A DNA stretch of 32,000 bases, from contig CP064992.1 in assembly GCA_016699935.1 (NCBI GenBank), forward strand, positions 1,170,001-1,202,000, given 5' to 3'. Shown in pieces: positions 324-31,725 of the stretch. Origin of the DNA: Candidatus Saccharimonadota bacterium. Lineage in GTDB: Bacteria > Patescibacteriota > Saccharimonadia > Saccharimonadales > UBA4665. Each line of letters begins with the position of its first letter. Positions within the stretch are counted from its first letter, which is position 1. The notes under the pieces are model-generated. The model was not told the DNA's origin, made no database searches, and worked only from the letters and a program-made list of their open reading frames with translations. The position numbers and the translations under genes are program-made.

Positions 324-372
324 AAGAGTGGTGAGATAAGAGATAAGAATAGTGAGCGGAAAGTGAAAATGA
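324..372. repeat. Degenerate period-7 purine-rich array
   Basis: AAGAGTG GTGAGAT AAGAGAT AAGAATA GTGAGCG GAAAGTG AAAATGA, read directly from the plus strand. Confidence 0.6.
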
Positions 373-488: not shown

Positions 489-3458
489 GTGCAGTATATA
501 AGTGGAGAAACGCGTAGTTACATGAAACAGCTTGAATCGAACCGTCCGCGGCGTTCTAAAGCCAAATCGAACACATTTGTGACGCGCAGCGGCAAAACTA
601 TTAAGGTCAACCGTTCTCTCAATGAACGCCTAAAAGCCGGCCGAGAGGCCAAAGCACGCCGGAAAGCTGCATATTTGAGCAGCCTGCCTTCGCAGCCATG
701 GAAACGACTTCTCTACCGAATGAGTCCGAAGCGCCTTGCACGGTACTGGTTTAGTCGCGAGGAGCACTGATGGCTCTGAAAATTACTGGCATAAGCTTTG
801 TCGTCGGTTTCTTGCTATTAGTGGGCGTTTTTGCCTACTTCCGAAAAGACCTGCCGAAAATTAATGATGTCAACGGCAGTAATTTCGGGGGCAGTATCAC
901 CTACTACGACAGAACTGGTACGGTCCTACTCTACCAAGACTACAATGCAAAAAAACGCGTACCAGTTAAGGATGACCAGATAGCAGAAGTGATGAAGCAG
1001 GCAACTCTATCCATAGAGGACCGAAACTTTTTCAAGCACGGCGCTTTTGACACGAAAGGTATCATGCGAGCCACCGTGAATGAAGTCAAGGGAGGTGGTA
1101 GCGGCCGCCAAGGTGGATCGACTATCACTCAGCAACTTGTGAAGCTCAGCGAAGGCTGGCAAAATGAGCGAACTGTAAGCCGTAAGATAAAAGAGCTCAT
1201 CCTTGCTGTCGAACTCGAACGAGAATACAGTAAAGATGAAATTTTGACTGGCTATTTGAACATGGCACCGTACGGCAATGTAAATTCCGGTGTCGAGACA
1301 GCAGCTCAGGACTACTTTGGCGTGAGTGCAAAAGACCTCAGCCTTGCTCAGGCTGCCATGCTGGCTGCAATCCCCAAGGCTCCGGGTTCTCTTTCGCCTT
1401 TTAGTAGTCAGAGTTTAACAAAAGTCTTGGTACAAATTACTTCGATAGGGAGTGGCTCATTGACCGGCAACACTACATACTCAACATCATGAAAGATGAA
1501 AAATACATTACAGCAGAGCAACGAGACACTGCCAAGAAAGTCGATATACTTGCCCAAGTAAAACCACGCCAAGATAAATATGTAAATATCAAGGCACCCT
1601 ACTTCGTCAAAGCCGCCAAAGACGAGCTCTACAAGGCATTCCCAAAAGCAGTCGTCGATAACGGCGGCTGGAAAGTCATCACCACCGTAGATATGGACTT
1701 ACAGGCTTTAGCTGAAAAGTCTATGGCCGACGGACGAGCACAGATGACACGACAACGCGCTGATGTCGGTGCGTTTGTTGCAGAAGACAATGAAACTGGG
1801 CAGATTGTTGCACTTGTTGGCGGCTGGGGGCTAGACACGCCTGGTTACGGCGAAAATAACTATGCTAACCAAATGTATATATCGCCGGGTTCAAGCATAA
1901 AACCGTATAATTACCTGACGTTCATAGATAACAATAAAAAGGTCGGCGCCGGTAGTGTCCTGTATGACACGCAGGGCCCGATTGCGCAGTACACCTGTAC
2001 TAATAGAGCTCGTCCTGAAAGTGGCGGCAACTGTCTATTCGACTTTGATCGCCGCTACCCGGGGCCAATGACGCTTCGCTATGCACTCGGCGGCTCGCGT
2101 AACGTTCCTGCGGTGAAAGCCTTTGTTTCTGCCGTGCCAAATGATACCAGTCCTGGACGCGTCAATTCAATTAACAAAGTTATCTCAACCATAGATGGCC
2201 TCATGGATAATCCCGATGGCTACCGCTGCTTCAAAGATGAAACCGATGTCACCACGGCAACAAAGGCAGACGAGTCTCAATGCTACGCTTCGGCAGGCAT
2301 CGGTGACGGCGCCTATTTGCACCTCGATGACCATGTCCATGGTATCGCTTCTATCTCGCGGCTTGGCAAAGCCCTGCCAAAGACATACATACTAAAAGTT
2401 ACGAATGCTTCAGGGAAAACCCTGAAGGAATTCAAGCCGTCTACCGGCAAGCAAATTGTCAAGCCCGATTCGGCCTATATCGTGAACGACATGGCTTCAG
2501 ACCCAGGTGCGTCGTACCTCGGAAACAGCTGTAACGAACAAGGCTGTGGCGGGCTGAAATTCCACCGCTACAAGGGTTGGAAGATTGGCATAAAAACCGG
2601 CACCACGAACAATTTGCTCGATGGTATGATGGTCAGCTGGTCAAAGAAATATTCTGCGGGCATATGGGTGGGGAATCATACGCGCACCGTTCCATATTAT
2701 GGCCAGCCAGAAAACATGACTGCACCAGTCATGAAACAGTTCATGCAGGGGGCGCATGAACGTGCCGGAGCGGCCGACAACTGGAAAGAACCGGCTGGAA
2801 TCAAAACTGCACCTGCATTCATTAACCGCAGCAAAAATGGCGCTGGACAAATTGTTCCAAGCCGAGCCACCGATCTCTTCCCCTCTTGGTATGTCGGCAA
2901 GGCTGCTTCGACAAACGAGATGCTTGACAAAGTATCTAATAAACTCGCCACCAGCTGTACGCCGCCTCTTGCCAAGCAAAATAGTGCCAATAGCAACGCT
3001 GCCGGCTGGAATGTCGATGTCTTTTCGGGTGGCAACACCGGAGGTAATGCACCGGCAACTGGTAACGATGACATCCACAACTGCAACGATGCCAAACCAA
3101 CAGCCAATATCACCGCTGTAAACGGCGCATCGACGGACAGCCAAGCCGGTCTGACCTGCCCCGAGGCTGGCTGTAGCATCATGGTACGAGTCGACCAGGG
3201 GACACACCCGCTTAGTGATGGCGCACGGACGAATTTTCCAGGTACATTAAGTCTTCTCATAAACGGCCAACAGGTTCAGTCACAAGGAGTCGGTGTTAGT
3301 GGTGACTACCAGTTCACCTATGTCCCAGGTGGCGGTGCGGCCGAGTCCTCCAAATCAGTGTTCAGGTGACCGATAGCGTTTTGTACCAAGGCAGCGACAG
3401 CACGAGCATCTCAGTGGTCAAACCCCCGTTAGCGTCAGCCCCTAAAGATCCCCTCTGA
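489..3458 (+). CDS. Class A penicillin-binding protein (PBP1A-type transglycosylase/transpeptidase), interrupted by at least 3 apparent frameshifts
   Basis: ORF fragments 489..770, 770..1492 and 1489..3369. The first is a basic cytoplasmic tail. The second carries a TM segment and GT51 motifs (EDRNFFKHGAFD, GGSTITQQL). The third is the transpeptidase (SPGSSIKP, KTGTT). Junctions lie near 760, in 1408-1490 (candidate A4 run 1420-1423) and at 3352-3354. In another frame the ORF continues as ISVQVTDSVLYQGSDSTSISVVKPPLASAPKDPL to TGA 3456-3458. An alternative start is ATG 522. Confidence 0.85.
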
Positions 3459-3532
3459 ACCCCATAAGGAATAAAACAACCCCAGAAAATTACGTTCGGG
3501 CTGGGTTACTCGAGCACTCAAACCGTCCTACG

Positions 3533-4899: not shown

Positions 4900-4956
4900 A
4901 TTTTCAAGGTTCAATTCACAAGATTTTAGAGAATTTTCGATGAGCATGTTCCAAAC

Positions 4957-4991
4957 GTTCAACTGTCAACGTTCAAGTTATCAACAAACAA
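4957..4991. repeat. Period-7 array (GTTCAAC-type)
   Basis: The plus strand reads GTTCAAC TGTCAAC GTTCAAG TTATCAA CAAACAA. On the minus strand this gives phased TTGACA/TTGAAC -35-like hexamers. Confidence 0.6.
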
Positions 4992-5012
4992 TGTGCGGCC
5001 ATAGGCAACTGG

Positions 5013-5047
5013 AAGAATTATGAATCAAGAATTCAGAATTCAGAGTG
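5013..5047. repeat. Period-7 array (AAGAATT-type) abutting modular element copy A
   Basis: AAGAATT ATGAATC AAGAATT CAGAATT CAGAGTG on the plus strand. Confidence 0.6.
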
Positions 5048-5335
5048 CGGCAATAGGCCGCTCAAAATTGCCGCGTAGCGATGTAACTAGTGGTGGCCAT
5101 GCGGAAGCTCCTGGTCAGAATGTTGTTGGCTTCTACGACTTCTGGCAGGTGGCGTGACTTGTTTTACGAAGGCTAGTATTGCCGGTAGCAATAGTAGCTT
5201 GAGGAGTTGTCACGTCGGTTGTAGAAACGAACAATAGTTCTGCCAAGAGCTGGAGCTGCTGGCCGAGGTTTTTTGCTTCTTTTTGTCCGGCACAAAAAGA
5301 AGTCGCCCTGCCGGGCGAGACCGGCATGTTTTGTT
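5044..5335. repeat. Modular structured intergenic element, copy A (candidate ncRNA or BOX-like repeat)
   Basis: Shares ordered conserved blocks with 9169-9456 and 17477-17823. The blocks are: a GC hairpin gcggc-aatag-gccgc; agcgatgtaactagtggtggccatg...ctggtcag..tgttgt; gagttgtc.cgtc.gttgt..aaacgaacaa; ggagct.ctggccgaggttt; a long A/T stem cttctttttgt-ccgg-acaaaaagaag; and a cgccc-tgcc-gggcg hairpin. The strand is unresolved. Confidence 0.7.
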
Positions 5336-5437
5336 GATGGCAAAAGGCTTTGTTGGCCGCGGGACAAAACCCATATGAATGACGCTATTTTCGAAATTTA
5401 TTAGGCTAAATGGCAGAAGTCAAAACAGTGCATGTGG

Positions 5438-6421
5438 CTATTGGGCGGAGGGAAGGCCTTCGGCGGATAGGGCCTGGGTTAGCTGTCGTTCTTCGAGCGC
5501 TAGAGCGTTACGTTTTTCAACAGTATCATTGTACTCAGCAATCAAACCTTGGGTTTCAGACAACAACGCATTGTATGCTCGCACAAGTTGGTTAAAACTG
5601 GCAACCGTGGCATTATATGTCCCGACATTCGTTCTCCTGAGGACATCAAGCTCACGCTGTTGCGCATCTAACTCACTTCTCTGTGCAAGTAAGCGACTTT
5701 GGTTTGTGTCTATAGTAGACTTCAGTGTGTTCAAGTCAGCATCAAAGGCTGCAACCTGGTCACGCCGAAGCGTAAACTCGGCCTGGTAGCGTAGCGCCAT
5801 CGTCACGACCGCTTTCCGGTTCGTAAAATACTGCTTGTAATGTGCCTCTAGCTCTGCCGGCAAATCCATAACTTCAGTTGCAAATATTGAGTGCATTTCA
5901 TTCGCAATTTCGGTTGGTTCAGTTTGGCGATATAATGCTATGGTTTCACGAACCCGTTCATCGTTAAGACTCTTTTGGTAAAAAGCTTCGAGCGAAGTGT
6001 CTAGCTGTTTTTTTTCTGCCGCCGAAAGCCTCGCATAGGCAGCGTGGAGCATTTCATGGGCTGCGGTAACTTCTTCGACACCTTGTAGGCGAATGTCGGT
6101 AACATCGTAGAGGTAAATGCCTCTGTCGCCACCCTTATAGCAACCGAGAATGATAGTTTTTTCAGCTGCAATTGGGCATTCTTTACTAAACGTTGACGAC
6201 TCTAGAAGCTGTGGTTTATTGACGTAAAACAGGTGCGTGCCATGATCGTTCATCTGTGTTGACCGCGCGATCGCAGCGACTGCTGAAGATGGAAAATACC
6301 CTCGTAGTTTCCACCAGTCGGTTATTCGCTGTTGGTTGACATAGAGCGCGCCGAGCGCGCCAAACCAAACGAGCAGGAAAATAAGTACTCGACCGTGGTG
6401 AGGTTTCGGCTGGTTATGCAT
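5438..6421 (-). CDS. Hypothetical membrane-anchored protein with an HExxH motif and a C-terminal coiled-coil-like region
   Basis: Intact 327-aa ORF. It has an N-terminal hydrophobic segment (VLIFLLVWFGALGALYV) and AAHEMLHAAY in the middle. The last ~110 aa are Q/L/A/E-rich heptad-like sequence. I recognise no family. Confidence 0.7.
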   Translation of the reverse strand: MHNQPKPHHGRVLIFLLVWFGALGALYVNQQRITDWWKLRGYFPSSAVAAIARSTQMNDHGTHLFYVNKPQLLESSTFSKECPIAAEKTIILGCYKGGDRGIYLYDVTDIRLQGVEEVTAAHEMLHAAYARLSAAEKKQLDTSLEAFYQKSLNDERVRETIALYRQTEPTEIANEMHSIFATEVMDLPAELEAHYKQYFTNRKAVVTMALRYQAEFTLRRDQVAAFDADLNTLKSTIDTNQSRLLAQRSELDAQQRELDVLRRTNVGTYNATVASFNQLVRAYNALLSETQGLIAEYNDTVEKRNALALEERQLTQALSAEGLPSAQ

Positions 6422-6436
6422 TGATTAAGTATACCA
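6422..6436 (-). promoter_or_regulatory. Extended -10 (TGgTATACT) 6 nt upstream of the ATG of the HExxH gene; leaderless-type
   Basis: The minus strand reads cttTGgTATACTtaatcaATG. Confidence 0.45.
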
Positions 6437-6489
6437 AGAAGCTAACCAGTTGAGGTAACGAACGGAGATCACCCATAGGAACCGACGAC

Positions 6490-8966
6490 TTATTCGCTAT
6501 GGGTAGCATAGGTCAGGGCATCATCACGCGAACCAACGTGGATGATATCGCCCTTAGTAAACTTATCGTCGAGGATATCAATAGCCAGCTGATCTTCTAT
6601 GGTGTCTTGGATGAGCCGGCGCAAGGGACGGACACCGTTTTTAGCATCATAGCCATGTTCAATCAAATACTGCTTGGCGGCAGTCGTAAGCTGAACACTG
6701 ACACCATGTTTTTGCAAGCGTTTGCGCAGCTCGTCAACCTGCAAGTCTATGATATGGTAAATATCCTTTTTGTGAGGCCGCGGAACACAACGACCTTATC
6801 GATACGGTTCAATAGCTCTGGGCGCAGCTCTTTTGAGCCGATCCATGACATTGTCCTTGTTTTGCTCATGCATGGCGTCGAGATCCTCAAAGTCAGTTCT
6901 ACGTCCAGCCTGGAAACCAAGTGCAGCTTCTTTTTGGAGCTTGTCGGCACCAATGTTGCTCGTCATGATGACAATGGTATTCGTGAAGTCTATGCGACGG
7001 CCTTTTGCGTCGGTCAGGTAGCCATCTTCGAGCATTTGTAAAAGCATGTTAAATACATCTGGATGCGCCTTTTCAATTTCGTCAAACAAGACAAGGCTGT
7101 AAGGCTGGCGGCGGATTTTGTCGGTGAGCTGGCCACCTTCGTCGTAGCCGACATAACCTGCCGGAGCACCAACAAGCCGCGATACATTGTGATGTTCGCC
7201 AAATTCACTCATATCTATCTTAACCAGCGCATTCTCAGAGCCAAAAAACTCACGAGCGAGCACGCGCGCCAGTTCAGTTTTGCCAACCCCAGTTGGACCA
7301 AGAAAAATGAACGAACCAATTGGCCGATTAGCGGCGCTAATACCACTACGATTCCGACGAATCGCCTTACTGACAACTGCGACAGCTTCCGTCTGGCCAA
7401 TCACATGCCTGGAGATGTTCTTTTCGAGTTGTAACAGGTACTTAGCTTCGCTTTTGATAACTTTTTCACAGGCACGCCAGTGATGCGGGAAACGACTTCA
7501 GCCACATCGTCACTACTCATGACGAGCACTGCACCAGTTTTTGTTGCCTTATACAGCTCGTCGAGCTTTTTTGGATTTGTGAGGCGCGAGTTTTACCTCG
7601 AGCGGCTCGTTCGTAATCTTCCTGGTCAACCGCTTCGTCTATACGAGCATTGACGAGCTTCAATTCTTTCTGCAACTTGCGAACCTCAGGACTTGTTTTG
7701 CCCCTTTCTACACGAAGCGCGGCTGCCGTCTCGTCGAGTAAATCAATTGCCTTATCTGGCATGAATCTATCTTGGATATAGCGCTTTGCGAAATTCACCG
7801 TATCATCAATGACTTCATCGCTAATGGTAACACCATGAAACTCCTCATAGTGTTTGCGGAGTCCCTTTAGAATGGCGATAGTTTCGGGCATAGTTGTTTC
7901 CGGAACCTGGATGGGCTGAAAGCGCCGTTCTAGGGCCGCATCTTTTTCAACATGCTTGGTGTATTCTGCTGTCGTCGTGGCACCAATAACCTGGATTTTG
8001 CCCCGGGCAAGCGCGGGTTTCAAGATATTACCGGCATCCATCGAACCTTCGGCTGCACCGGCACCAATAATAAGATGTAACTCATCTATGAAAACCACCG
8101 TCCGTTTGTCGCCTTCAAGTTCGGCCATGACTTTTTAAGCCGCTCTTCAAATTCGCCGCGATACTTCGTGCCTGCGACCATTGCAGCAAGATCAAGCATT
8201 ACAATGCGCTTATCGAGCAGACTATCTGGCACGTCCTCATTGATGATTCGCTGCGCGAGACCCTCAACAATAGCTGTCTTGCCAACACCAGGCTCGCCAA
8301 TAAGCACAGGATTATTCTTGGTTCGGCGGTTCAGAATGGTTACAACTCGTTTAATCTGTGCCTCACGTCCGACAACTGGGTCAAGTTTGCCGCCACGGGC
8401 CTGGGCAGTCAAGTCAGTACCAAACTGATCGAGCATGCTTTTACTACTGCGTTGAGCCTTGCGGGCTGTCCGGCGCGAACCGGGCTCAACTGTTTCACGG
8501 TCGGCGTCATCAAACTGGCGGCTCAAGAAATTTTCGAGTTCACGCACGATGCTGTCGGTATTGACATGCATATCGCGAAGTAAGACGCTGGCACGAGAGT
8601 TCTTCTGGCTCAGGATACTATACAAGATATGTTCGGTGCCACAGAAGTCCTGGCCGTAGTCTTGCGCAACATCATAGGCCATACGGAGAGTGAGTTTGGC
8701 TGTTTCGCTATAGCCTTTTGCGCCCATGTTGATAACGATGTTTTTGGCGTCAGCTTCAAGGCGACTTGGGCTTTACTGAGAGTGACGCCGGCATCTTCGA
8801 GGATTTTTCCACCCAGGCTACCATCTTGTGCCATCAGACCAAGAAGCAAATGTTCGGTACCAATGTACGCATCACCGAGCCCGCGAGCTATTGTCCCTGC
8901 GTGCGCGAGGCTTTGCCGAGCATTCTCGGTTAAATAGTTTGAAAATTCTTGGTAGTCTGGTTGCAT
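6490..8966 (-). CDS. clpC: ATP-dependent Clp protease ATP-binding subunit ClpC, broken into at least 6 fragments
   Basis: Fragments 8610..8990, 8086..8727, 7517..8128, 6796..7404, 6747..6953 and 6490..6744. Together they give Clp_N repeats, NBD1 (GEPGVGKT), a short UVR-like middle region (DQEDYERAA), NBD2 ([11 protein letters not shown]) and the C-terminal D2-small domain. One junction resolves at the T5 run 8741-8745. The likely start is ATG 8966..8964, preceded by aaGGAGcgaattat. Confidence 0.9.
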
Positions 8967-8996
8967 ATAATTCGCTCCTTTGGAGCTCACTCTCTA

Positions 8997-9031
8997 AGTC
9001 AAGAAACATGAGTCATGAGTCAAGAGTGAAA
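8997..9031. repeat. Period-7 array (AGTCAAG-type) in the clpC upstream region
   Basis: AGTCAAG AAACATG AGTCATG AGTCAAG AGTGAAA on the plus strand. The minus strand carries phased TTGAC motifs. Confidence 0.6.
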
Positions 9032-9035
9032 GTTT

Positions 9036-9055
9036 GTCGCCAGCGGCGACTTTTT
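9036..9055 (+). other. GC hairpin followed by T5 (terminator-like on the plus strand) inside the clpC upstream region
   Basis: gtcgcc-agc-ggcgac followed by ttttt. No plus-strand gene ends here, so its function is unclear. Confidence 0.3.
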
Positions 9056-9113
9056 GTCTGGAATCCCGTCTTCGTGAGTAATGTACTTCACGAATACGAT
9101 ACTACCAGTCTAG

Positions 9114-9145
9114 CAAAATTAGCACTCCCACGTCAAGAGTGCTAA
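9114..9145 (-). terminator. Intrinsic terminator downstream of nusA and element copy B
   Basis: The minus-strand RNA forms uuagcacuc-uugacgugg-gagugcuaa (9-bp stem) followed by UUUUG. Confidence 0.55.
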
Positions 9146-9152
9146 ATTGGAA

Positions 9153-9172
9153 TTAGATGTTAGATGTTAGTG
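9153..9172. repeat. Period-7 array (TTAGATG-type) abutting element copy B
   Basis: TTAGATG TTAGATG TTAGTG on the plus strand. Confidence 0.55.
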
Positions 9173-9456
9173 CGGCCGCAGGCCGCCAGTAATCATCGCG
9201 CCAGCGATGTAACTAATGATGGCCATGCGTAACCTCATGGCTCAGGTGTTGTCGGCTTTGACAACTTCCGACAGGTGGCGCGACTTGTCCGAGAGAGGCC
9301 TGGATTGCCTGTGGCAATCCAGGCTGAACGAGTTGTCGCGTCAGTTGTCAAAACGAACAACTATCTGACCAAGAGGTGGAGCTACTGGCCGAGGTTTCTC
9401 GCTTCCTCTTTTCCGGTAAAAAAGGAAGTCGCCCTGCTGGGGCGAAACTGGCATTT
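9169..9456. repeat. Modular structured intergenic element, copy B
   Basis: Same block order as copy A. It has the hairpins gcggcc-gca-ggccgc and catcgc-gcca-gcgatg, a variable hairpin gcctggattgcc-tgt-ggcaatccaggc, and the A/T stem cttcctctttt-ccggt-aaaaaaggaag. It ends 8 nt from the nusA stop codon. Confidence 0.7.
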
Positions 9457-9461: not shown

Positions 9462-10615
9462 TTATTCCCCGTGTTCTTCAATAGCGTCGAGTAGTGAGCT
9501 TTCGAGTTGCTCTTTCTTCTTTAGGCGCGGCTGCTTAGGCAATTCTTTTACTTGTGGCTCGCCTTCAACGTCTGGCGCATTTTCAGCCTCAATATCGAGT
9601 TCATAGCCAACAAGTTTGCTCGCAAGCCGCACGTTCTGACCACCACGACCGATGGCAATACTCAGTTGATCTTCCGGCACAAACACTTTGGCGCGCTTGG
9701 CAGATTCGTCTATGACGACGCGATTGACCTTGGTTGGGCTCAGTGCATTCATAATGTACTGGGCAGCCTCATCAGCGTAGACTATGATATCTATCTTTTC
9801 TTGTTCACCCACTTCACCGACCACCGCATTGACGCGCGTACCGTGTCCGCCCACAAAGGTTCCGACGGGATCGACACCAGGCACCGTACTAGCGACGGCG
9901 ATTTTGCTGCGGACACCAGCCTCACGAGCAATGTTCTTAATCTCGACTGCGCCAGCATCCATTTCTGGCACCTCAGCGCGGAAAAGCCACTCAATGAACT
10001 GAGTATTGCCTCGTGAAACTACCAGCTGCGGGCCGCGAGGGCCGCGCTCGACGTCTTTCAGGAACACCTTGAGCCGTTGGCTTGGGTAGTAGCGCTCACC
10101 CTGGATCTGTTCGCTTTTGGCATAATTCCTTGCGCTTTACCCAACTCCAATCGGACAATCATACCCTCGACACGAGTCACCATAGCATTAATTACGGTAC
10201 CGATTTTGTCTTCGTACTCAGCCAGGACTATCTCTCGTTCAGCTTCACGCAGCCGCTGCAATATAACCTGTTTGGCGGTTTGGGCAGCCACGCGGCCAAA
10301 GGTGGTTACCTTTTCATGCAGCTCGACAAAGTCACCTATGGCAGCCTCTTTTTTGAGCTTCTTGGCGTCTACCAGACTTATTTCGAAATCTTCGTCACCT
10401 ACTTTCTCCACAACTTCTTTGCTGACATACGCATCTACCTCACCGCTGTGCAAGTTCATACTCACGCGTACTTCTTGCTCGCGTTCACCATAATCACGGC
10501 GATAAGCTGCGGCAAGAGCTTGCTCCACCACTTCTTTCACTGTATCTTCAGGCAGATTCTTTTCCTCAGCTATTGCCTGTATGGCTACTGCTAGTTGTTT
10601 AAAATCCATATCCAT
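9462..10615 (-). CDS. nusA: Transcription termination/antitermination factor NusA, with 1 apparent frameshift
   Basis: Fragments 10058..10639 and 9462..10067 cover the N-terminal, S1 and KH domains. The junction is at the T4 run 10115-10118 and restores GIMPKSEQIQGERYYPSQRLKVFLKDV. The likely start is ATG 10615 (MDMDFKQL), preceded by GGAGcgaagcgactc. Confidence 0.9.
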
Positions 10616-10629
10616 GAGTCGCTTCGCTC

Positions 10630-10664
10630 CAATTCTCAATTAGCAATTTTCAATGACCAATTGT
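10630..10664. repeat. Period-7 array (CAATnnn x5) in the nusA promoter region
   Basis: CAATTCT CAATTAG CAATTTT CAATGAC CAATTGT on the plus strand, with CAAT in exact phase in 5 consecutive units. Confidence 0.7.
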
Positions 10665-11555: not shown

Positions 11556-14172
<2,617 letters not shown>

Positions 14173-14180
<8 letters not shown>

Positions 14181-15125: not shown

Positions 15126-15244
15126 CTGAGTCTCAAAACCCCCAGGTTGTTATCCCAGCGAACGCTGGGATTCGGATAAATGGACTGGATTCCCGCCTTC
15201 GCGGGAATGACATAAGTACTAGTAGGGCCAGTTTTGAGACTCAA
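15126..15244 (+). repeat. Composite ~119-nt element with 14-nt terminal inverted repeats, copy 1
   Basis: The termini are ctgagtctcaaaac (15126-15139) and gttttgagactcaa (15231-15244). The internal hairpins are atcccagcg-aa-cgctgggat and attcccgc-cttc-gcgggaat followed by gaca. The right end overlaps the rnhB stop codon. Confidence 0.65.
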
Positions 15245-15866
15245 GTTCGCTCAGATTGACAAAACTGCTGGACCGGTTTGAAGGATTTCCGATGGATGTC
15301 TGTGACGCCATGTTTCTCGAGCGCGGCAGCGTGAGCAGCTGTGCCATAGCCAACATGTTTTTCGAAACCATAGCCTGGATATTTTGCTGCCATTTCTGCC
15401 ATATAGTCATCACGAGCGACTTTGGCAATAATACTTGCCGCACTCACCGCCGGCACCAAATCGTCTGCATGCACCAACGTCCGCACATTGTGAGAGAATA
15501 ATCCTTTCACATTTTTGAAAAAGTTGAAGTTGCCGTCGATGATGATTTCTTCGTAGTCGGTGCTCGTTTCGTGGAGTTTTTCATTGCCCGTATCATGGCG
15601 ATTTGTACGGCTTTTGTAAGCCCCAGCTGGTCTATTTCGGCTGGTGTGGCCCAGCCAATACCGTAGGCTATAGCTTGGGATTTGATTTGCTCGGCGAGAA
15701 ATTCCCGCTGTTTCTTGCTGAGTCGCTTGCTATCACGCAACACCGTCGCCCCACCTTTGGGAGGACAGTCCTCCCAAAGTGAATTTGTAGGTAGGATTAC
15801 GGCAGCTGCGGCGAGCGGACCCGCCCAGCAGCCCCGCCCTACTTCGTCGATCCCGACCGTAACCAC
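15241..15866 (-). CDS. rnhB: Ribonuclease HII, with 1 apparent frameshift
   Basis: Fragments 15507..15866 ([14 protein letters not shown]) and 15241..15510 ([21 protein letters not shown]...GYG). The junction is near 15507-15510. Confidence 0.88.
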
Positions 15867-16301
15867 TGTAACCCTTTATACATCAGGTAAAACGCTAGCG
15901 CACCAGTTGTATTCGCCACAAGATCCCATGAGGTATCACTTATACCATAAGGCATATACCCCACCCAAAATAGAACAACTTCAAAAAGTTCATTTGCCAC
16001 CCCTAGAGTACAGACCGTCGCAAAGAGACTACTAACTTCTTGAAGCATACTTAATTTCAAATGCTTAATCTGGATAATATATAGCCACAACAAACCAGAA
16101 AACACCCCGCCACCAATTAAATGAGTCATATATTGTGTTTGGTTGCCGTGAACTAGTGGGAGGGGATAAAATATGAAACAAAAAAAAAATAAAACAACCA
16201 GCAATAAGGATTGGCCGCTGCCGTGGATGATAACCCATTTTCAGACGCAAAAGAAGATAGACCAAAATTGGGACAATTATAGATATAGAGTATGACAACA
16301 T
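15839..16301 (-). CDS. VanZ-like membrane protein, with 1 apparent frameshift at a 10-nt homopolymer
   Basis: Fragments 16065..16340 and 15839..16204 overlap across the A10 run 16180-16189. The hydrophobic protein contains NELFEV...SDTSWDLVANTTGA, resembling the VanZ DE..Q/D...N..G pattern. I prefer ATG 16301 as the start. Confidence 0.6.
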
Positions 16302-17360: not shown

Positions 17361-17398
17361 ATCCGTAGGATTGTACCCTATATCACCCCTGAAAGCAA
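17361..17398 (-). promoter_or_regulatory. Sigma70-type promoter of rplS (TTGCTT-17-TACAAT), with the -10 box 9 nt from the ATG
   Basis: The minus strand reads TTGCTTtcaggggtgatatagggTACAATcctacggatATG, with no SD. Confidence 0.5.
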
Positions 17399-17429
17399 GC
17401 AGCTAGTGTGTTTTTATTCCCAGAGGCGT

Positions 17430-17478
17430 GAGTCAAGAGACAAGATAGAGATAAGAGTTAAGAGATTTGAGATAAGAG
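17430..17478. repeat. Period-7 purine-rich array abutting element copy C
   Basis: GAGTCAA GAGACAA GATAGAG ATAAGAG TTAAGAG ATTTGAG ATAAGAG on the plus strand. Confidence 0.65.
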
Positions 17479-17823
17479 TGCGGCCTTGAGGCCGCTAAAT
17501 GATCATCGCGTAGCGATGTAACTAGTGGTGGCCATGTGTAACCTCCTGGCTCAGATGTTGTTAGGCTCTACAACTTCCAACAGGCGACACGAGTTGTTTG
17601 ATGCTAGTCAAGCCCTTGTGGCTTGACCAAGTAGCGATGTGTTATTCAAACACATCGCGTTCGGAAAGCTAGTATTGCTTCTGGCAATACCTTTTTGACG
17701 AGTTCTCGTGTCGGTTGTAGAACTGAAAAAAGCTGACCAAGTGGTGGAGCCTTTAGTCGAGGTTTTTGCTTCTTTTTGTCCGGTACAAAAAGAAGTCGGC
17801 TGGCAGTCCGAGAACTTCCGAGG
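17477..17823. repeat. Modular structured intergenic element, copy C (longest; two extra internal hairpins)
   Basis: Same conserved blocks as copies A and B. It has the hairpins gcggcc-ttga-ggccgc and catcgc-gta-gcgatg. The extra hairpins are gtcaagcc-cttgt-ggcttgac and gcgatgtgtt-attc-aaacacatcgc. The shared variable hairpin is gtattgc-ttctg-gcaatac. The A/T stem cttctttttgt-ccggt-acaaaaagaag is identical to copy A. Confidence 0.7.
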
Positions 17824-17883
17824 GAATAAGGTTGGGCGAGATTGTCAGGTGTAGTGAGTACGCAGACGTTGGAGCAAGCGCAT

Positions 17884-17945
17884 GGATTCCCGCATGCGCG
17901 GGAATGACAAGCAAGTGAAGATTCTTCACTTCGTTCAGAATGACA
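17884..17945 (+). repeat. Two GAATGACA-type hairpin repeats
   Basis: ggattcccgc-atgc-gcgggaatgaca (17884-17909) and gattct-tcacttcgttc-agaatgaca (17920-17945). Confidence 0.65.
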
Positions 17946-17958
17946 GGGTTAAAGTAAC

Positions 17959-18076
17959 CTGAGTCTCAAAACCCCAGGATGTCATCTCAGTGAAGGCGGA
18001 GTTCAAAATTCATGAACTGGATTCCCGCCTTCGCGGGAATGACAAAAGTACTAGTGGAGACAGTTTTGAGACTCAG
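17959..18076 (+). repeat. Composite ~118-nt element with 14-nt terminal inverted repeats, copy 2
   Basis: The termini are ctgagtctcaaaac (17959-17972) and gttttgagactcag (18063-18076), a perfect inverted pair. The right ~65 nt are near-identical to copy 1, including attcccgccttcgcgggaatgaca. The central ~35 nt differ. It ends 12 nt from the pilB stop. Confidence 0.65.
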
Positions 18077-18088: not shown

Positions 18089-19700
18089 TTACCCAACCAC
18101 TCGGAAGACTTCGTCTAGGTGGTGTGGCCGGCGACAACATGGAGAATGGCGTCTTGGAGCATGGTACGCATGCCGCTTGCCACGGCTGCCGATTCGATTT
18201 CTTGGGCAGACAGGACGTGATCGTGGCTCTCCAGCAGCTTACGGATTTCACCAGTCATGATGAATTGTTCGCGTACAGCGATCTGGCCTTTAAAACCGTA
18301 GGGTTTTCGGCCGATGAACCTGGTTTGTACAGCTTGATTCCTTGCAAGTTTGGCCGTTCAATGCCAACCGGCAGTGTCTCAATAACCCGTTGGATGGTTT
18401 GCAGTTCGCTAGCTGTGGGATCATACGGTAGCTTTATGGCGTCGTCGAGCTGCCGAATAAGCCGCTGTGCCATGACAAGGCGAATCGCCGAAACAAACAG
18501 TGGGTTCTGACCGATGATATCGCTGAGCCGCGTCAGTGCCGCCGAAGCAGACGAAGCATGAAATGTGGCAAGCACCAGGTGGCCCGTGAGGCTGGCCTGC
18601 AAGGCGGTTTTGGCGGTGTCATTATCGCGAATTTCTCCCACCATAACGATATCTGGGTCAAGTCGCAGAATAGCACGAAGCTTTTCGGCAAATGAGCCGT
18701 CGTTGCCAGATTCGGTCGACTTGATGGGAATCTGCGTTATCCCCTCAAACTGGTACTCAACCGGATCTTCAACGGTGATGATTTTTCGCTCATCACTCGA
18801 GAGGCTATTGAGCATAGAATATAACGTGGTGGTTTTACCAGAGCCGGTCGGACCGACTATTAGGACAAGACCACTCGGTTTACTGATGATGTCATCGACA
18901 ACCGCACGCTGATCTGGCAATAGCCCTAGCCTGTCCAAGTTATACATAGCACGGTCCATATTGAACAGCCGCATCACAACATCCATGCCATGGATGGTTG
19001 GAACGGTCTCAAGACGAACATTTACGTCCACTTCATTGCCATCTGCCATTTTCACCTTCTGGGCAATATGGCCTTGCTGCGCGTAGTCTGCGCTGGTGCT
19101 CACATTGCCAGCACTGGCAATGGCAGCAATCAGCACGCGGTATTTATCTGGCTCCAGCCGGGCAACTGGGTGCAATACACCGTCTATGCGAAACCGTATG
19201 CGCGCATCTTCAACCTGAGTTTCAAGGTGAATGTCACTGGCGTTCAGATTGTGCGCTTGGCTCACCAAGTAGGCCAGTATGTCATCAGCGCGCACCTGAT
19301 CAAGCGTTAGAGATACTTCTTTGACCAACTGCTCAGTGCCGGCGGTATTGATAGCAATATCCTGATACACAACTTGTTTCGGTGGGTCATACAAGTTCAT
19401 ATATTCCCGGAAACCACTTTCAGATATGAGGGTAAAGGCTATTTTCTGGTCGGTAAAATGCTCAACGAGCGCATTCATCGTTTGCTGTGACGTTGTGGTG
19501 GTTATACCAAAGAGAATGTTGCTCCGATCTGCCCGCATCGGGATAAGTTTGTATTGCCGCATTTGATCGATAGTGACAATATCTTTAAACAAAGGCTTTT
19601 CTGCCATTTGTGAAGTGTCGGAGTAGCTGACATGCAAAATATCCGCACGTCGTGCAGTGGCCTGCTCATCGTTCAAGCGCGCTTGCTGGTTATCTTCCAT
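18089..19700 (-). CDS. pilB: Type II/IV secretion (type IV pilus assembly) ATPase, GspE/PilB family, with at least 2 apparent frameshifts near the 3' end
   Basis: The main fragment 18255..19700 has Walker A (VGPTGSGKTTTLYS) and GEIRDNDTAKTALQASLTGHLVLATFHA. The C-terminus continues in other frames as GYKGQIAVREQFIMTGEIRKLLESHDHVLSAQEIESAAVASGMRTMLQDAILHVVAGHTT then LDEVFRVVG, with stop TAA at 18089-18091. Confidence 0.88.
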
Positions 19701-21436: not shown

Positions 21437-24400
21437 TTATTGCAACTTCACGTTTTCTGCACCAACAAGCTCGGTTAAGTCTGAGATGACTGAAGGTGCC
21501 TGCACTCGAGCAGGAAGCTTAACGGCTTGTTTGGCGGTATCTGGTCCGAGCACAAGAACTACCTCGTGCTCACCGATACTACCATCGATAATCTGTTTCA
21601 GCTGGCTGAGCAGCGCGGTATCGTCACTCCGTTTTAAGCGTATATACAACCGTGGAGCTTTGGTCGCTTCGACAGCATCTGGAACAGAAGAATTTTTTAC
21701 CGTCTTCGTTCTTGCTGAAGACTTCGCCGGTTTTGGTACCCGCGCTTTTCGACCAGTTGCCTGGTAGGCCGCTGCTTGTTCATGGGTAACCTCACGAGCA
21801 TCGTCAACGAGCACCTTAACTTCGTCGCCACTGTTGCCGTCACGGCCTTTTGTGCTGAGTTTCCCGCGTATGAGCACCACACGATCGCGCTCCCACAACC
21901 CGACAGTCTGCTGGAAGGCAGAAGGAAATAGCACAGCTTCAATATCGCCGTATTCATCCTCGATTTTAACAAACGCCATTTTTTGGCCATTTTTGGTCGT
22001 AATTTCACGAGTTTCGGTGATGCTTCCACCGATAACAACCGCTCGACCGTCATGCTCGGGTTTCAAAATATTGAGCGGTGTGGTCTGCTCGGCCAGTAAC
22101 GCACTGAATGCTGCAAGCGGCTGTTGACTCAGGTACAAACCAAGTAGTTCGCGCTCCCACAGCAAAAGTTCACGTGCATTATGCTTGTACTCAGGTGGTG
22201 CTAGCTGGAGGGTAGGTTTTGCCGATCTGGCATCATCGTCAAGGCTCCCAAACAGGTCAGTCTGTCCACTGGCCTTTTCCTTTTGGAGGCGCTGGCCAAA
22301 TGCAAGAATGATGTCGAGGTTATGGAGCAACGTCGATCGGTCACCAAATGCATCAAATGCTCCAGACCGCGCTAAGCTTTCAAGAGCCTTCCGGTTGACA
22401 GTACGCAAGTTGACCGCACCCACAAAATCTTCGATGCTCGTGAATACACCCAATTCTCTCGCGTGCACGATTTCCTCGACAGCACCCTGGCCGACGTTTT
22501 TTATGGCGTTCATGCCAAATCGGATGGCATTTCTTTCCTTGACCACTGCAAATTCGCCGAACGACTCATTTACGTCGGGGGGTAGGACTTGCAGGCCCAT
22601 TTTTTTACACTCAGTAATCTCAATACTTAATCGGTCGCTATCATCATAGTCACTCGTCATAAGGGCGGCCATAAATGCTGCTGGATAGTGAGCTTTGAGG
22701 TATGCCGTCTGATACGCGATGAGTCCGTAGCAGGCAGCGTGCGCTTTGTTGAAACAGTAGGCGGCAAAATCTTCGAGTTGCTTCCAAAAATCTTCCATCA
22801 GGCCACGCTCGGCCCCGACCGTCTTGACCGCACCTTCAATGAATTCGGCCTTCATTTTGGCCATCATCTGCGGATTTTTCTTGCCGATAGCCTTACGTAG
22901 CGTGTCGGCCTGGCCGCCCGTAAAACCACACATATCCTTGCTGATCTGCATGACCTGTTCTTGCATGACAATGACGCCGTAAGTACTTTCAAGAGCAGGC
23001 TTCATCGCTGGATGCATATAGGTTATTTGCTTTTTGCCATGCTTTCGGGCAATGAAATCTTCAATCCACTGCATTGGACCCGGACGATACAGAGCCACCA
23101 TAGAGATGATGTCTTCAAAAACTGAGGGTTGGAGTTCCTTTAAGTAGCGCTTCATCCCAGCTGACTCGAGCTGGAACACACCGGTCGTGTCGCCGCTACT
23201 CAGCAGTTTGTATGTTTTTGTATCGTCAAGCGGAATGGTGTTGATGTCTATGTCATCACCGTAGACTTTTTTATGATTCGAAGCGCGTTCTTGATGATGG
23301 TCAGGTTTGATAGCCCAAGAAAATCCATTTTGAGTAGTCCAAGTTCCTCGATCGGGCCCATCGGGTATTGAGTCGCGACGACTCCCTTTTGTGCCATTTC
23401 AAGTGGTGCAAATTTGACTATGTCATCTGGCGCTATGACAACCCCGCGGCATGTACGCCGTGACTCCGCACCGTTCCCTCGAGGATTATGGCGTAGTCTA
23501 TGACAGTCTTGCTCGTTTCGTTCGTTTCGTACTCGCCGCAGATCGACGTCGTCGACTATAGAGGTCGCGAGCGGGATATGGCGCCCTGGACAGGCTGGGG
23601 ATCATCTTAGCCAGTCGGTCAGCATCTGCGTAAGGCACCTGTAGCACACGGGCGACATCGCGGACAGCATTTCGTGCAAACATCCGGCCAAAGGTGACGA
23701 TGTTTGCCACGCGGTCTTTGCCGTATTTTTCCACGCAGTACTGGATAACTTCATCGCGGCGCGTATCTTGAATGTCGATGTCAACATCGGGCATCGATAT
23801 ACGGTCAGGGTTCAAAAACCGCTCAAACAACAGGTCATATGCCAATGGGTCAAGCTCAGTGATCTTGAGTGCATAGGAGATAATGGAGCCAGCGGCACTG
23901 CCTCGACCCGGCCCAAATACAATGCCGTTATTTTTACCCCAGTTAATAAAATCTTGAATGATAAGAAAGTAGCCGTCAAAGCCCATTTTTTCGATTATGC
24001 CCAGTTCATATTCGGCGCGTGTAATAACTGCCTCGGGGATGTGTTTGCGCGCTTCTGCGACCGACATGGTCGATGCTTCATCTTCTGTCACGCCACCGTA
24101 GCGCCACGCCATCCCCCGGAACGCGAGTGTATCTAGGTAGGTCTTTTCCGTTTCGCCATTCGGCACAGGAAACATGGGGATGAGGATTTTGCCTAGGTCA
24201 ATATTGACCCCGCAACGCTCAGCGACGACTTTGGTGTTTAGGATAACCTCGGGGTAGTCAGTGCCCCAGCGAGATATGAGCTCGTCCGGTGGCGTTACAT
24301 GCAGCTCGTAATCCTTTAGGCTCATCCGTTTTTCGTCGCTTAAAAAAGCACCAGTACCAACACACAGCAAGATCTCGTGGGCGTCTTGGTCGGCATGTTT

Positions 24401-25102
24401 TAGGTAGTGCGCATCACAGGTGAGAACGACGGATATATTGAGTTCTTTTGCCAGCTTAAACACGCCGTCGTTGACTCGCTTTTGTTCCGCGCTGTGCGAC
24501 GGCGCATCAGGATGGCCGTGGTCTTGAACCTCGAGATAGTAGCGGTCGTTAAATGTCTTTTGTACCAGCTAGCCACTTCTTTGCCTTAGCGTAATCATCG
24601 TTTTTCAGCGCATCGCCAATCTCCCCGCCCATACAGGCACTTCATGGCAATGAGCCCTCGCCGTACTGCTCGAGAAGCTCATGGTCTATACGCGGAAAGT
24701 AGTAAAACCCGTCCAGATTAGCGATAGTGCTCAAGCGCATCAGGTTCTGGTAGCCCGTCTGGTTCATGGCAAGCAAGATGAGGTGGTAGCGGTTTTTATC
24801 TTCTGGGGATCCTTGTCCGTATGACGTCTTGAGGCGACGTATGTCTCTATGCCGATGATAGGCTTCACCTCTTGCCCGAGACACTCTTTATAAAACTCTA
24901 TGGTGCCGCTGAGGGTGCCATGATAGGTCATGCCTACGGCAGTCATACCTTGTTCTTTGACAAAGCTAACGAGCTCCGGGATCTTCGTCAAACCATCCAG
25001 CAAACTATACTGCGTATGATTATGCAGGTGCACATAGTCTGTTACCGACACAGAAGCAGGCTTTGATACAGCTTTAGCTTTCTTCTCAGACATATACCTC
25101 AC
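21437..25102 (-). CDS. dnaE: DNA polymerase III alpha subunit DnaE, broken into at least 6 fragments
   Basis: Fragments are 24764..25102 (PHP: VHLHNHTQYSLLDG), 24642..24884, 23498..24463 (GPGRGSAAGSIISYALKITELDP...PDVDIDI) and 21437..23179 (fingers, OB fold and C-terminal region). The gaps 23180-23497 and 24464-24641 carry the expected sequence in shifted frames. The total span of ~1220 codons is normal for DnaE. The start is GTG 25102 or ATG 25093. Confidence 0.92.
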
Positions 25103-31704: not shown

Positions 31705-31725
31705 ATTTCTTCATGCACCGCTAAG

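What the first reader, a model, noticed from the sequence alone, without database searches (positions are those of the whole stretch)
5044..5335. Three-copy ~290-350-nt modular intergenic element with compensatory stem changes: candidate new structured RNA or BOX-like repeat family (copy A)
**What is shared.** Three intergenic segments (5044-5335, 9169-9456, 17477-17823) carry the same ordered blocks at roughly 80 percent identity by eye.
- A GC hairpin (gcggcc-N3-5-ggccgc).
- A ~93-nt block: atcgcg..agcgatgtaacta.tg.tggccatg...ctgg.tcag.tgttgt...acaacttcc.acagg....cga.ttgt.
- A variable hairpin region.
- A ~125-nt block: gagttgtc.cgtc.gttgt..aaacgaacaa...ctgaccaag.ggtggagc...gaggttt, then the stem cttctttttgt/acaaaaagaag and a terminal hairpin.

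**Compensatory changes.**
- The variable hairpin keeps the core attgc/gcaat. In copies A and C it reads gtattgc/gcaatac; in copy B it reads ggattgc/gcaatcc, and the stem extensions are unrelated.
- gttgtc/gacaac (B) becomes gttgt/acaac (C) and gttgt/acgac (A, with a U-G pair).
- The outer stem agttgt...acaact (B) becomes agttc...gaact (C).

**Other points.** Indels between copies are not multiples of three, so the ORFs 5133..5327 and 5173..5367 are not coding. I could not match the element from memory to tmRNA, RNase P, SRP, 6S, T-box or ribosomal leader motifs. G-U pairs recurring in the RRCAGG-N8-YTTGTY hairpin in all three copies favour a plus-strand RNA. One stem in copy B, and the gene context, favour the minus strand.
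Basis: partly seen in the sequence, partly recalled or inferred. Interest (0 to 1): 0.8.

Follow-up and report, generated by a model that had tools for sequence, protein, structure and literature searches.

The report
New structured intergenic repeat family, Saccharibacteria
Three copies of a roughly 285-base non-coding element sit between housekeeping genes of a Saccharibacteria genome; they share a folded shape that evolution has clearly preserved and match no catalogued RNA or mobile element, but what they do is still unknown.

Summary
The three copies are A 5044-5328, B 9169-9455 and C 17477-17818, all on the + strand. Five full relatives and one partial relative turned up in metagenome and MAG contigs.

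Together they form a ~170-nt interrupted hairpin (P3) with a three-way junction, flanked by hairpins P1, P2, P4 and P5.

- **Structure:** across 8 sequences, 93% of cells are paired. 28 of 87 pairs change on both sides, against 14.3±2.1 in shuffles and 5-12 in slid controls.
- **Strand:** the + strand is the folded one (G-U:A-C 46:12, against 21:18 on the minus strand).
- **Coding and known families:** it is not coding, and nothing in Rfam matches.
- **Origin by insertion:** sister genera have 53-105-nt spacers at sites where this lineage carries the element.
- **Selection:** two copies sit at orthologous sites in a sister species. They stay 72-79% identical in paired and unpaired columns, while 4-fold codon sites are saturated (36%) and the flanks cannot be aligned. 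That indicates purifying selection.

Best reading: a genus-restricted family of structured non-coding elements, probably a plus-strand RNA, that spread by insertion and was then retained. A selfish REPIN/BOX-like repeat is the main rival. RNA versus single-stranded DNA, expression and function remain untested.

The parts
5044..5328 (+). Copy A, core element (P1 5049-5059, P2 5069-5083, J2/3 5084-5094, P3 5095-5264 with apical hairpin 5171-5199, P4 5275-5303, P5 5309-5326)
   Evidence: Its positional orthologue is L005, which shares the right-flank gene.
9169..9455 (+). Copy B, core element (P1 9174-9184, P2 9194-9209, P3 9221-9390, apical hairpin 9297-9325, P4 9401-9429, P5 9435-9453). It lies between the nusA stop (9462-9464) and the CIRCE operator of clpB (9119-9145).
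17477..17818 (+). Copy C, core element (P1 17482-17493, P2 17504-17518, P3 17530-17758, P4 17768-17796, P5 17802-17818). Its positional orthologues are L002 and L009, in the pilB-rplS spacer.
17602..17662 (+). 61-nt insertion at the top of P3, found only in copy C. It forms two extra hairpins (GTCAAGCC/GGCTTGAC and GCGATGTGTT/AACACATCGC).
   Evidence: sequence read directly
5013..5044 (+). Period-7 purine-rich tandem array abutting the 5' side of copy A (units AGAATTC / GAATCAA)
9153..9170 (+). Period-7 tandem array (TTAGATG) abutting the 5' side of copy B
17436..17478 (+). Period-7 tandem array (AGATAAG / GAGTTAA) abutting the 5' side of copy C
   Evidence: (D3)
4993..5010 (+). Partial second P1-like sequence (GTGCGGCCATAGGCAAC) upstream of copy A's heptad array. 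Possibly a remnant or duplication.
   Evidence: (I9); not followed further

Best explanation
This is a genus-restricted, multi-copy family of ~285-nt non-coding elements.

**Fold.** The plus strand forms five helices:
- Two small 5' hairpins, P1 and P2.
- A conserved single-stranded GUAACUA linker.
- A ~170-nt interrupted helix, P3, with purine-rich internal loops, a three-way junction and an apical ATTGCC/GGCAAT hairpin.
- Two 3' hairpins, P4 and P5.

**Shown.**
- The fold is conserved by compensatory change.
- The plus strand is the selected strand.
- The element entered intergenic spacers by insertion in the ancestor of one Saccharimonadales genus.
- Copies at orthologous sites have since been held by purifying selection, in paired and unpaired positions alike. 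Neutral sites are saturated over the same interval.
- Modules have been exchanged between copies.

**Inferred.** The selected molecule is a plus-strand RNA of about 250-290 nt. It would be transcribed independently of, and mostly antisense to, the flanking genes, and would end at P5. In the A/B/L005 subtype P5 is a canonical hairpin plus U-tract. The conserved internal loops and linker would serve as a protein-binding scaffold, not as a base-pairing regulator of the neighbouring genes.
For: **Structure.**
- 87 pairs are 93.3% paired, against 86.0±0.7 in shuffles.
- 28 pairs change on both sides, against 14.3±2.1 in shuffles (0/500) and 5-12 in slid controls.

**Strand.**
- Consensus folding energy is -99.2 on the plus strand and -81.9 kcal/mol on the minus strand.
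- G-U:A-C is 46:12 on plus and 21:18 on minus.
- All 8 copies fold better on plus.
- GC skew shows the plus strand is C-rich. Any replication-linked mutation bias would therefore favour A-C mismatches on plus, not the observed G-U (inference).

**Not coding.**
- Variable columns per codon position are 8/7/9.
- The ORF is frame-shifted in L002/L009.
- No ORF is shared by all copies.

**Insertion.**
- The pilB-rplS spacer is 53-105 nt in L016-L019 and L021-L025 (L026 and L020 have longer spacers that hold no copy) but ~730 nt (894 nt to the frame-shifted pilB ORF's stop) with copy C in the window.
- In relative L024 the nusA stop to CIRCE interval is 12 nt; in the window it is ~316 nt.
- About 250 kb of relatives hold no copies.

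**Purifying selection.**
- Between the window and L009, pilB 4-fold sites are 36% identical and third positions 46%.
- The gene flanking A/L005 has third positions 36% identical, and the non-element spacer cannot be aligned.
- C/L009 are nevertheless 77% (paired) and 72% (unpaired) identical, and A/L005 are 76% and 79%.
- The P5 subtype tracks the locus: A-L005 96%, C-L002 88%.

**Terminator.** P5 plus TGTTTTGTT on the plus strand of A is retained in its orthologue L005.

**No known family.**
Against: - No transcription data exist, and no convincing conserved promoter was found upstream. The tool reports none. My -35-in-heptad / -10-after-P1 model would cut off the 5' arm of P2.
- The C/L002/L014 subtype lacks a U-tract after P5.
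- P1, P2 and the P3 apex mostly carry C-GNA-G-type triloops, which are classic stable DNA mini-hairpins (own knowledge). The element folds just as significantly with DNA parameters, so single-stranded DNA is not excluded.
- Three copies in 32 kb, and short-read contigs that break at the element (L004, L009, L030), suggest a high copy number. That is more typical of selfish repeats than of sRNA genes.
- The mosaic pattern means gene conversion could mimic per-copy constraint.
- Only 8 sequences are available, and two are nearly identical.
Confidence: 0.45

Rival explanations
1. Selfish non-autonomous mobile repeat, like REPIN, BOX, ERIC or IS200/IS605-derived palindromic elements (PATEs). The fold would be needed on single-stranded DNA, or on an RNA intermediate, for recognition by a transposase encoded elsewhere in the genome. 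Family-level conservation would come from replicative selection and gene conversion, not from a host function.
For: - Presence or absence at conserved spacers between genera.
- Narrow distribution.
- Probable high copy number, and assemblies that break at the element.
- Mosaic modules.
- It shares spacers with other small repeats, including a TIR-bearing MITE at 17968-18075.
- Triloop hairpins, and a fold that is equally significant with DNA parameters.
- Every copy abuts a heptad array, with left junction AAGAG|YGCGGCC in most copies, which could be a target.
- Croucher 2011 used the same logic to call BOX, RUP and SPRITE parasitic (PMC3049150). REPINs persist vertically for very long times (PMC3116915).
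Against: - No terminal inverted repeats and no target-site duplication.
- No transposase, RT, TnpB or IscB in the window or any fetched locus (and the gene tables).
- The P5 subtype tracks the locus across species. Orthologous copies stay 72-79% identical in unpaired positions too, while neutral sites are saturated. Old immobile copies of a selfish element should have decayed.
- The fold has a three-way junction and asymmetric conserved loops, not a simple palindrome.
- In the window the folded strand is the leading-strand template. That is the opposite of the IS608-type expectation (weak: n=3).
Confidence: 0.3
2. Cis-acting hairpin cassette. The element would act in place as a bidirectional transcription terminator or insulator, or as a 3'-end stabiliser between adjacent transcription units, as proposed for REP/BIME and ERIC.
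For: - Terminator-like sites on the minus strand at the P5/P4 end of A and B, directly after the upstream gene: TCGCCC..GGGCGA + CTTCTTTTTG. There is another at P1 of C.
- A plus-strand P5 plus U-tract in A.
- Copy B begins 6 nt after the nusA stop, and no other terminator lies before CIRCE.
Against: - A terminator needs ~30 nt, not a 285-nt fold with conserved unpaired motifs.
- G-U asymmetry favours the strand antisense to the flanking mRNAs in 6 of 8 copies.
- Relatives manage with 53-105-nt spacers.
Confidence: 0.1
3. Small-protein or type I toxin-antitoxin locus. The conserved ORF starting at ATGGCCATG (MAMRKLLAQVLS...) or its antisense 34-aa ORF would be translated, and the RNA fold would control it.
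For: - An ORF of 24-50 codons starts at the invariant ATGGCCATG in all copies, with a similar N-terminal peptide in 6 of 8.
- A 34-aa minus-strand ORF occurs in A, B and L005.
- E. coli LDR and SIB repeats set a precedent (own knowledge).
Against: - No third-position excess (8/7/9 variable columns).
- A 1-nt insertion shifts the frame in L002/L009.
- ORF length and C-terminus are not conserved, and there is no hydrophobic transmembrane segment.
- The minus-strand ORF is absent or broken in C, L001, L014 and L002.
Confidence: 0.04

Closest known systems
BOX elements of Streptococcus pneumoniae (with RUP and SPRITE)
   Same: Intergenic, multi-copy, 100-300+ nt, modular, with extensive predicted secondary structure. 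Restricted to one species and its nearest relative, slow to transpose, and sometimes expressed (PMC3049150).
   Different: - No sequence relation was found.
- There is no boxA/(boxB)n/boxC architecture. The variable parts here are the external heptad array and one apical insertion.
- Orthologous copies here are conserved across saturated neutral divergence, which was not the case made for BOX.
REPINs / REP sequences mobilised by RAYT transposases
   Same: Extragenic, with a hairpin maintained in single-stranded DNA or mRNA, vertically persistent, non-coding, and with no classical TIR/TSD signature (PMC3116915).
   Different: - REPINs are two ~20-25-nt REPs plus a spacer forming one simple hairpin of roughly 100 nt or less. 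This element is 285 nt with five helices and a three-way junction.
- No RAYT is known for this clade (not testable here).
ERIC / IRU elements of enterobacteria
   Same: Imperfect palindrome of >100 nt in transcribed intergenic regions, with size variants caused by internal insertions and reported compensatory substitutions (own knowledge).
   Different: ERIC is a single 127-nt palindrome. There is no sequence similarity, and ERIC is found across a whole family of bacteria, not one genus.
HEARO / omega-RNAs of IS200/IS605-family elements (IscB, TnpB)
   Same: A structured RNA of a few hundred nt that is itself part of a mobile unit. It is multi-copy, often found without an adjacent ORF, and has hairpins at the element ends (own knowledge).
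   Different: - No hit to Rfam HEARO or any other model.
- No iscB, tnpB or tnpA in any locus.
- The orientation relative to the replication skew is opposite to the IS608 rule (weak).
STRR heptanucleotide repeats of cyanobacteria (comparison for the 5' heptad arrays only)
   Same: Tandem 7-nt units in intergenic DNA that are lineage-specific (own knowledge). Here there are 12 period-7 arrays in 32 kb, against ~7 in 250 kb of relatives.
   Different: Different units and a different phylum. Here an array abuts every copy of a structured element.

Membership tests
Any Rfam 15 family | Covariance-model score at or above the gathering threshold | tested here: not met
   0 hits in the window at gathering. 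Copy A at E<=10 gives only chance-level hits, the best being RAGATH-25 at 16 bits against a threshold of 49. L001, L002, L005 and L014 give no hit at E<=10.
Classical MITE | Terminal inverted repeats | tested here: not met
   The inverted repeats found are internal (P3 arms, apex, P4). The 5' end (P1/P2) and the 3' end (P4/P5) are not complementary. A 14-nt flanking inverted repeat occurs only around copy A.
Classical MITE | Target-site duplication | tested here: inconclusive
   No direct repeat is visible at the junctions of B (filled versus empty comparison) or of the other copies. The empty sites come from other genera, so exact boundaries cannot be set.
Classical MITE | Short, non-coding, multi-copy, with presence/absence polymorphism | tested here: met
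Classical MITE | Cognate autonomous IS with matching ends | not testable with these tools
   The complete genome is not available, and no transposase appears in the window or the loci.
REPIN / REP-RAYT | Two inverted ~20-25-nt REPs forming one simple hairpin | tested here: not met
   The element has five helices and a three-way junction over 285 nt.
REPIN / REP-RAYT | RAYT gene in the same genome | not testable with these tools
   Genome not available.
IS200/IS605-derived element or omega-RNA (HEARO) | Match to known omega-RNA/HEARO models, or adjacency to tnpA, tnpB or iscB | tested here: not met
   (no model hit); and the gene tables (no such genes).
IS200/IS605-derived element or omega-RNA (HEARO) | Subterminal hairpins and a fixed short target 5' of the left end | tested here: inconclusive
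   P1 and P5 are subterminal hairpins. The left junction reads AAGAG|YGCGGCC in most copies, but that motif is part of a heptad array common in this genome.
Type I toxin-antitoxin | Conserved small hydrophobic ORF | tested here: not met
cis-regulatory 5' leader or riboswitch of the downstream minus-strand gene | Lies between the promoter and the start codon, on the mRNA strand | tested here: not met
   The CIRCE operator (9119-9145) and a conserved promoter-like motif of rplS (about 17372-17400, read directly) lie between the element and the genes. The fold favours the opposite strand.
Independent structured sRNA gene | Covariation-supported fold under purifying selection | tested here: met
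Independent structured sRNA gene | Own promoter and terminator, and a discrete transcript | tested here: inconclusive
   A plus-strand terminator-like P5 plus U-tract is present in A and L005 and weakly in B, but not in C, L002 or L014. No convincing promoter was found. Expression cannot be tested here.

The most novel reading that the evidence does not exclude
A previously undescribed class of large (~285-nt) structured RNA specific to a Saccharimonadales (CPR) genus. It would be present in many genomic copies and individually maintained by selection. Its conserved purine-rich internal loops, three-way junction and 5' GAG-heptad array would serve as a platform for an unknown protein partner, making it a new ribonucleoprotein or RNA-guided/mobile RNA system in an episymbiotic, genome-reduced lineage.
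Probability: 0.3. Interest if true: 0.65.

Novelty: new member of a known kind. Interest (0 to 1): 0.5.

Why it matters
Saccharibacteria have tiny, tightly packed genomes, and almost nothing is known about their non-coding RNA or their repeats. In such a genome, a 285-nt element kept in several intergenic spacers and conserved while synonymous sites are saturated is unlikely to be junk. If it is an RNA, it adds a lineage-specific structured RNA with good covariation support to a phylum where few are known. If it is a persistent replicator, it extends REPIN-like biology to the CPR. It would also explain why short-read assemblies of this genus fragment at these sites. Either outcome gives a concrete alignment and structure for Rfam-style curation and for transcriptome checks.

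Tried and rejected
- **Rfam:** searched at gathering and at E<=10 on the window and four loci. Nothing matched. The RAGATH-25 hit in copy A (16 bits) is not reproduced in other copies and its hairpin is not conserved in L001, so it is chance.
- **tRNA/tmRNA:** none.
- **Protein coding or type I toxin:** rejected.
- **Virus, phage or plasmid origin:** two viral contigs pattern scans and distant blastn against the phage and plasmid collections all came back empty.
- **Metagenome pattern hits L003, L006-L008, L010-L013 and L015:** chance. L003 lies inside a coding gene.
- **nusA terminator:** I first read the conserved hairpin at 9119-9145 as the nusA terminator. It is the CIRCE operator TTAGCACTC-N9-GAGTGCTAA of clpB, conserved in relatives. 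Copy B therefore sits between the nusA stop and clpB's operator.
- **Promoter model:** -35 in the last heptad, P1 as spacer, -10 in the AT-rich P1-P2 linker. It is not supported by the scan tool, is poorly conserved between orthologues, and would remove the 5' arm of P2.
- **Heptad arrays as part of the element:** weakened. Period-7 arrays of various units are common upstream of genes throughout this window. Even so, every copy has one at its 5' side.
- **5' leader of radA, clpB or rplS:** rejected by position and strand.
- **Extending the window's own genome:** the window's GatC is not on record.
- **Long-range 5'-3' helix in copy B's MFE** (CCAGUA/ACUGGC): not conserved in other copies.

Full report
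**Observation.**
The three segments are real. A three-way alignment gives 73% mean column identity. Refined cores are A 5044-5328, B 9169-9455 and C 17477-17818, all on the + strand. Copy C has a 61-nt insertion (17602-17662) that forms two extra hairpins.

The window is a Saccharimonadales (Patescibacteria) chromosome segment. Its L19 and PilB best hits are named Candidatus Saccharimonadales or Saccharibacteria. It is syntenic with relatives in the order gatB-dnaE-CAP-pilB-rplS-rnhB-pepN-nusA-clpB. Many housekeeping genes are split by frameshifts. The assembly is therefore indel-prone or the genes are decaying, and single-base indels in the copies should be read with caution.

**Relatives.**
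- One exact-pattern scan of GTDB species genomes found one copy, L001, in a MAG.
- One metagenome scan with a block-2 pattern found 14 contigs. nhmmer confirms five of them: L002, L005, L009 and L014 are full copies and L004 is cut by the contig end. The rest are chance.
- No copy occurs in viral contigs, phage records or plasmid records.
- No copy occurs in about 250 kb fetched around the orthologous genes of relatives whose PilB is 73-86% identical or whose NusA is 81-86% identical.

**Structure.**
The architecture has six parts:
- P1, GCGGCC/GGCCGC, invariant.
- P2, RTCGC/GCGAY.
- A conserved single-stranded linker, GUAACUAGUGRU.
- P3, about 170 nt. It has a GGCCA/UGGCC closing stem, a 5x5 purine-rich internal loop (GGAAG/GUGGA), several short helices, a three-way junction with a small CC-NNCA-GG hairpin, and an apical ATTGCC-N3-GGCAAT hairpin whose lower stem is hypervariable.
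- P4, CUUCCUCUUUU/AAAAGAGGAAG.
- P5, a variable 5-6-bp stem with a conserved CGAGA loop.

On the 355-column core alignment, 87 pairs are 93.3% paired, against 86.0±0.7 in shuffles (0/500). 28 pairs change on both sides, against 14.3±2.1 in shuffles (0/500) and 5-12 when partners are slid by 1-3 columns. Double changes fall in P2, P3, the apex, P4 and P5. P1 never covaries. Individual copies fold far better than shuffles as RNA or as DNA, on either strand (z -6.5 to -8.8), as expected for a largely palindromic element.

**Strand.**
The plus strand is favoured in every test:
- Consensus energy is -99.2 against -81.9 kcal/mol.
- G-U:A-C cells are 46:12 on plus against 21:18 on minus.
- All eight copies have a lower MFE on plus.

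The plus strand of the window is C-rich. A replication-linked C-to-T bias on the G-rich strand would create A-C, not G-U, on plus (inference), so mutation bias does not explain the asymmetry.

The plus strand is antisense to both neighbours for A, B, C, L002/L009, L014 and L005. It is co-oriented with a neighbour in L001 and L004. With five independent antisense cases against two sense cases, this is not significant.

**Not coding, not a leader.**
An ORF begins at the invariant ATGGCCATG in all copies. Its variable columns are spread 8/7/9 over codon positions, a 1-nt insertion shifts its frame in L002/L009, and its length ranges from 24 to 49 codons. No ORF on either strand is shared by all copies.

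The element is not a 5' leader of the downstream minus-strand genes either. The clpB CIRCE operator (9119-9145, TTAGCACTC-N9-GAGTGCTAA, conserved in L024, L027 and L032-L034) lies between the element and clpB. A conserved promoter-like motif upstream of rplS (read) lies between the element and rplS.

**Origin by insertion.**
The pilB-rplS spacer is 53-105 nt in L016-L019 and L021-L025. L027 carries an extra gene there, and the longer spacers of L020 (457 nt) and L026 (388 nt) hold no copy. The window carries copy C and other small repeats in its ~730-nt spacer. Between the nusA stop and CIRCE, relative L024 has 12 nt, whereas the window has about 316 nt consisting of a heptad array and copy B. 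Other relatives carry unrelated insertions or an extra gene at that position.

There are no terminal inverted repeats and no evident target duplication. No transposase, RT, TnpB or IscB occurs in the window or any fetched locus (and the gene tables).

**Retention under selection.**
This is the most informative result. L002 and L009 carry the element in the same pilB-rplS spacer as copy C, and their PilB is 90-91.5% identical to the window's by two alignments. L005 carries it next to the 3' end of the same 327-aa gene as copy A.

Between these species, neutral sites are saturated:
- pilB 4-fold sites are 36% identical and third positions 46%.
- Third positions of the 327-aa gene are 36% identical.
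- The spacer between that gene and the element cannot be aligned.

The positional orthologues are nevertheless well conserved. C/L009 are 77% identical in paired columns and 72% in unpaired columns. A/L005 are 76% and 79%. The P5 subtype follows the locus across species (A-L005 96%, C-L002 88%). P3 and P4 follow other groupings (B-L005-L002 88-96%, C-L014 86-90%, A-C P4 97%), so modules have been exchanged between copies.

The insertions therefore predate the species split, and the family, probably each copy, has been under purifying selection since then. Gene conversion between copies complicates but does not remove this conclusion.

**Heptad arrays.**
Every copy is preceded by a purine-rich period-7 array (GAGTCAT/GAGTCAA/GAGATAA, or GAATTCA in A and GATGTTA in B). 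GAGNNAN arrays occur only in element-bearing sequences. However, period-7 arrays of several different units are frequent throughout this window: 12 in 32 kb against about 7 in 250 kb of relatives. They mostly lie 20-120 nt upstream of gene starts. They are a lineage-specific companion feature, reminiscent of cyanobacterial STRR repeats (own knowledge). I cannot say whether they are part of the element, its target, or independent.

**What it most likely is.**
I favour a genus-restricted family of structured non-coding elements whose selected form is a plus-strand RNA of about 250-290 nt. It would have spread by insertion in the genus ancestor and been retained since (confidence 0.45).

In favour:
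- Covariation with G-U asymmetry.
- Conserved unpaired motifs and asymmetric loops.
- A three-way junction, not a plain palindrome.
- Constraint at orthologous sites.
- A plus-strand P5 hairpin plus U-tract that is conserved between A and its orthologue L005.

Against:
- No promoter was found and there are no expression data.
- The other P5 subtype has no U-tract.
- Triloops of the C-GNA-G type suit DNA hairpins.
- The apparent copy number is high.

The main rival (0.3) is a selfish REPIN/BOX-like replicator whose fold is read on single-stranded DNA or on an RNA intermediate. Narrow distribution and presence/absence are exactly the arguments Croucher et al. used for BOX, RUP and SPRITE (PMC3049150), and REPINs persist vertically for long periods (PMC3116915). 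It is weakened by locus-specific P5 subtypes, by constraint in unpaired positions of old copies, and by the lack of any transposase or terminal signature.

A purely cis-acting terminator or insulator role (0.1) is suggested by terminator-like sites on both strands. It cannot account for 285 nt of constrained sequence. It may still be a secondary, co-opted role: copy B supplies the only terminator-like hairpin between nusA and the clpB operator. A small-protein or toxin locus is unlikely (0.04).

**Novelty and limits.**
Nothing in Rfam 15 or in the phage, plasmid and viral collections searched matches. I found no paper describing such an element in Saccharibacteria.

I rate it a new member of a known kind (structured interspersed intergenic elements or ncRNA families), not a new kind of system. 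Limits:
- Only eight sequences from perhaps three or four genomes.
- No complete genome.
- No transcription data.

Noticed in passing
window 9119-9145: A perfect CIRCE operator (TTAGCACTC-N9-GAGTGCTAA) upstream of clpB, conserved at the same place in relatives L024, L027 and L032-L034. This implies HrcA control of clpB in this clade. The terminator scan had flagged it as a minus-strand terminator.
   Followed up: partly
window 333-348, 4954-4976, 5013-5044, 9007-9027, 9153-9170, 10630-10662, 17436-17478, 28427-28498, 30383-30471: Period-7 tandem arrays of various units (STRR-like). There are 12 in 32 kb against about 7 in 250 kb of related genomes. They mostly lie 20-120 nt upstream of gene starts, and 30383-30471 is an inverted pair of arrays.
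   Followed up: partly
window 15136-15243 and 17968-18075: A second repeat family (81% identical). It has terminal inverted repeats TGAGTCTCAAAAC.../...GTTTTGAGACTCA around a REP-like hairpin GGATTCCCGC-CTTC-GCGGGAATGAC, so it looks like a classical MITE.
   Followed up: partly
window 17880-17948; L002 ~985-1020; L001 ~60-110; L004 ~150-260; L026 ~3400-3480: Small repeats of the type GATTCTTCNACTTCGCTCAGGATGACAG and GGATTCCCGCATGCGCGGGAATGAC recur in the same spacers, 3' of several element copies. They generate spurious 'FAQDDS' and 'PACAGMT' ORFs.
   Followed up: no
window 5438-8990 (clpB), 21437-24463 (dnaE), 9462-10639 (nusA), 11858-14180 (pepN), 29413-30358 (gatA), 15507-16204 (rnhB), 18090-19700 (pilB): Housekeeping genes are split into two or more ORFs by frameshifts, while relatives have intact genes. 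This points to an indel-prone long-read assembly or to pseudogenisation.
   Followed up: partly
window ~17361-17400 (minus strand): A conserved promoter-like motif (TTGCTT-N17-TACAAT) ends only ~9 nt before the rplS ATG, here and in relatives. The rplS mRNA may be leaderless or nearly so.
   Followed up: no
window 31002-31088 and 31713-31799: An 87-nt direct repeat, 89% identical, 711 nt apart, near the right end of the window. It probably reflects paralogous gene ends.
   Followed up: no
window 9002-9060: A heptad array (CATGAGTCATGAGTCAAGAG) is followed directly by a GC hairpin with a triloop and a T-run (GTCGCC-AGC-GGCGAC TTTTTGT). This looks like a miniature of the element's 5' end (array plus P1) without the rest. 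It lies just upstream of the clpB start and is partly alignable with L024.
   Followed up: partly
window 4980-4993 and 5325-5338: A 14-nt inverted repeat (ATCAACAAACAATG / CATGTTTTGTTGAT) brackets copy A together with its heptad array and a partial second P1. The right arm is shared with orthologue L005, while the left arm was not seen there.
   Followed up: partly
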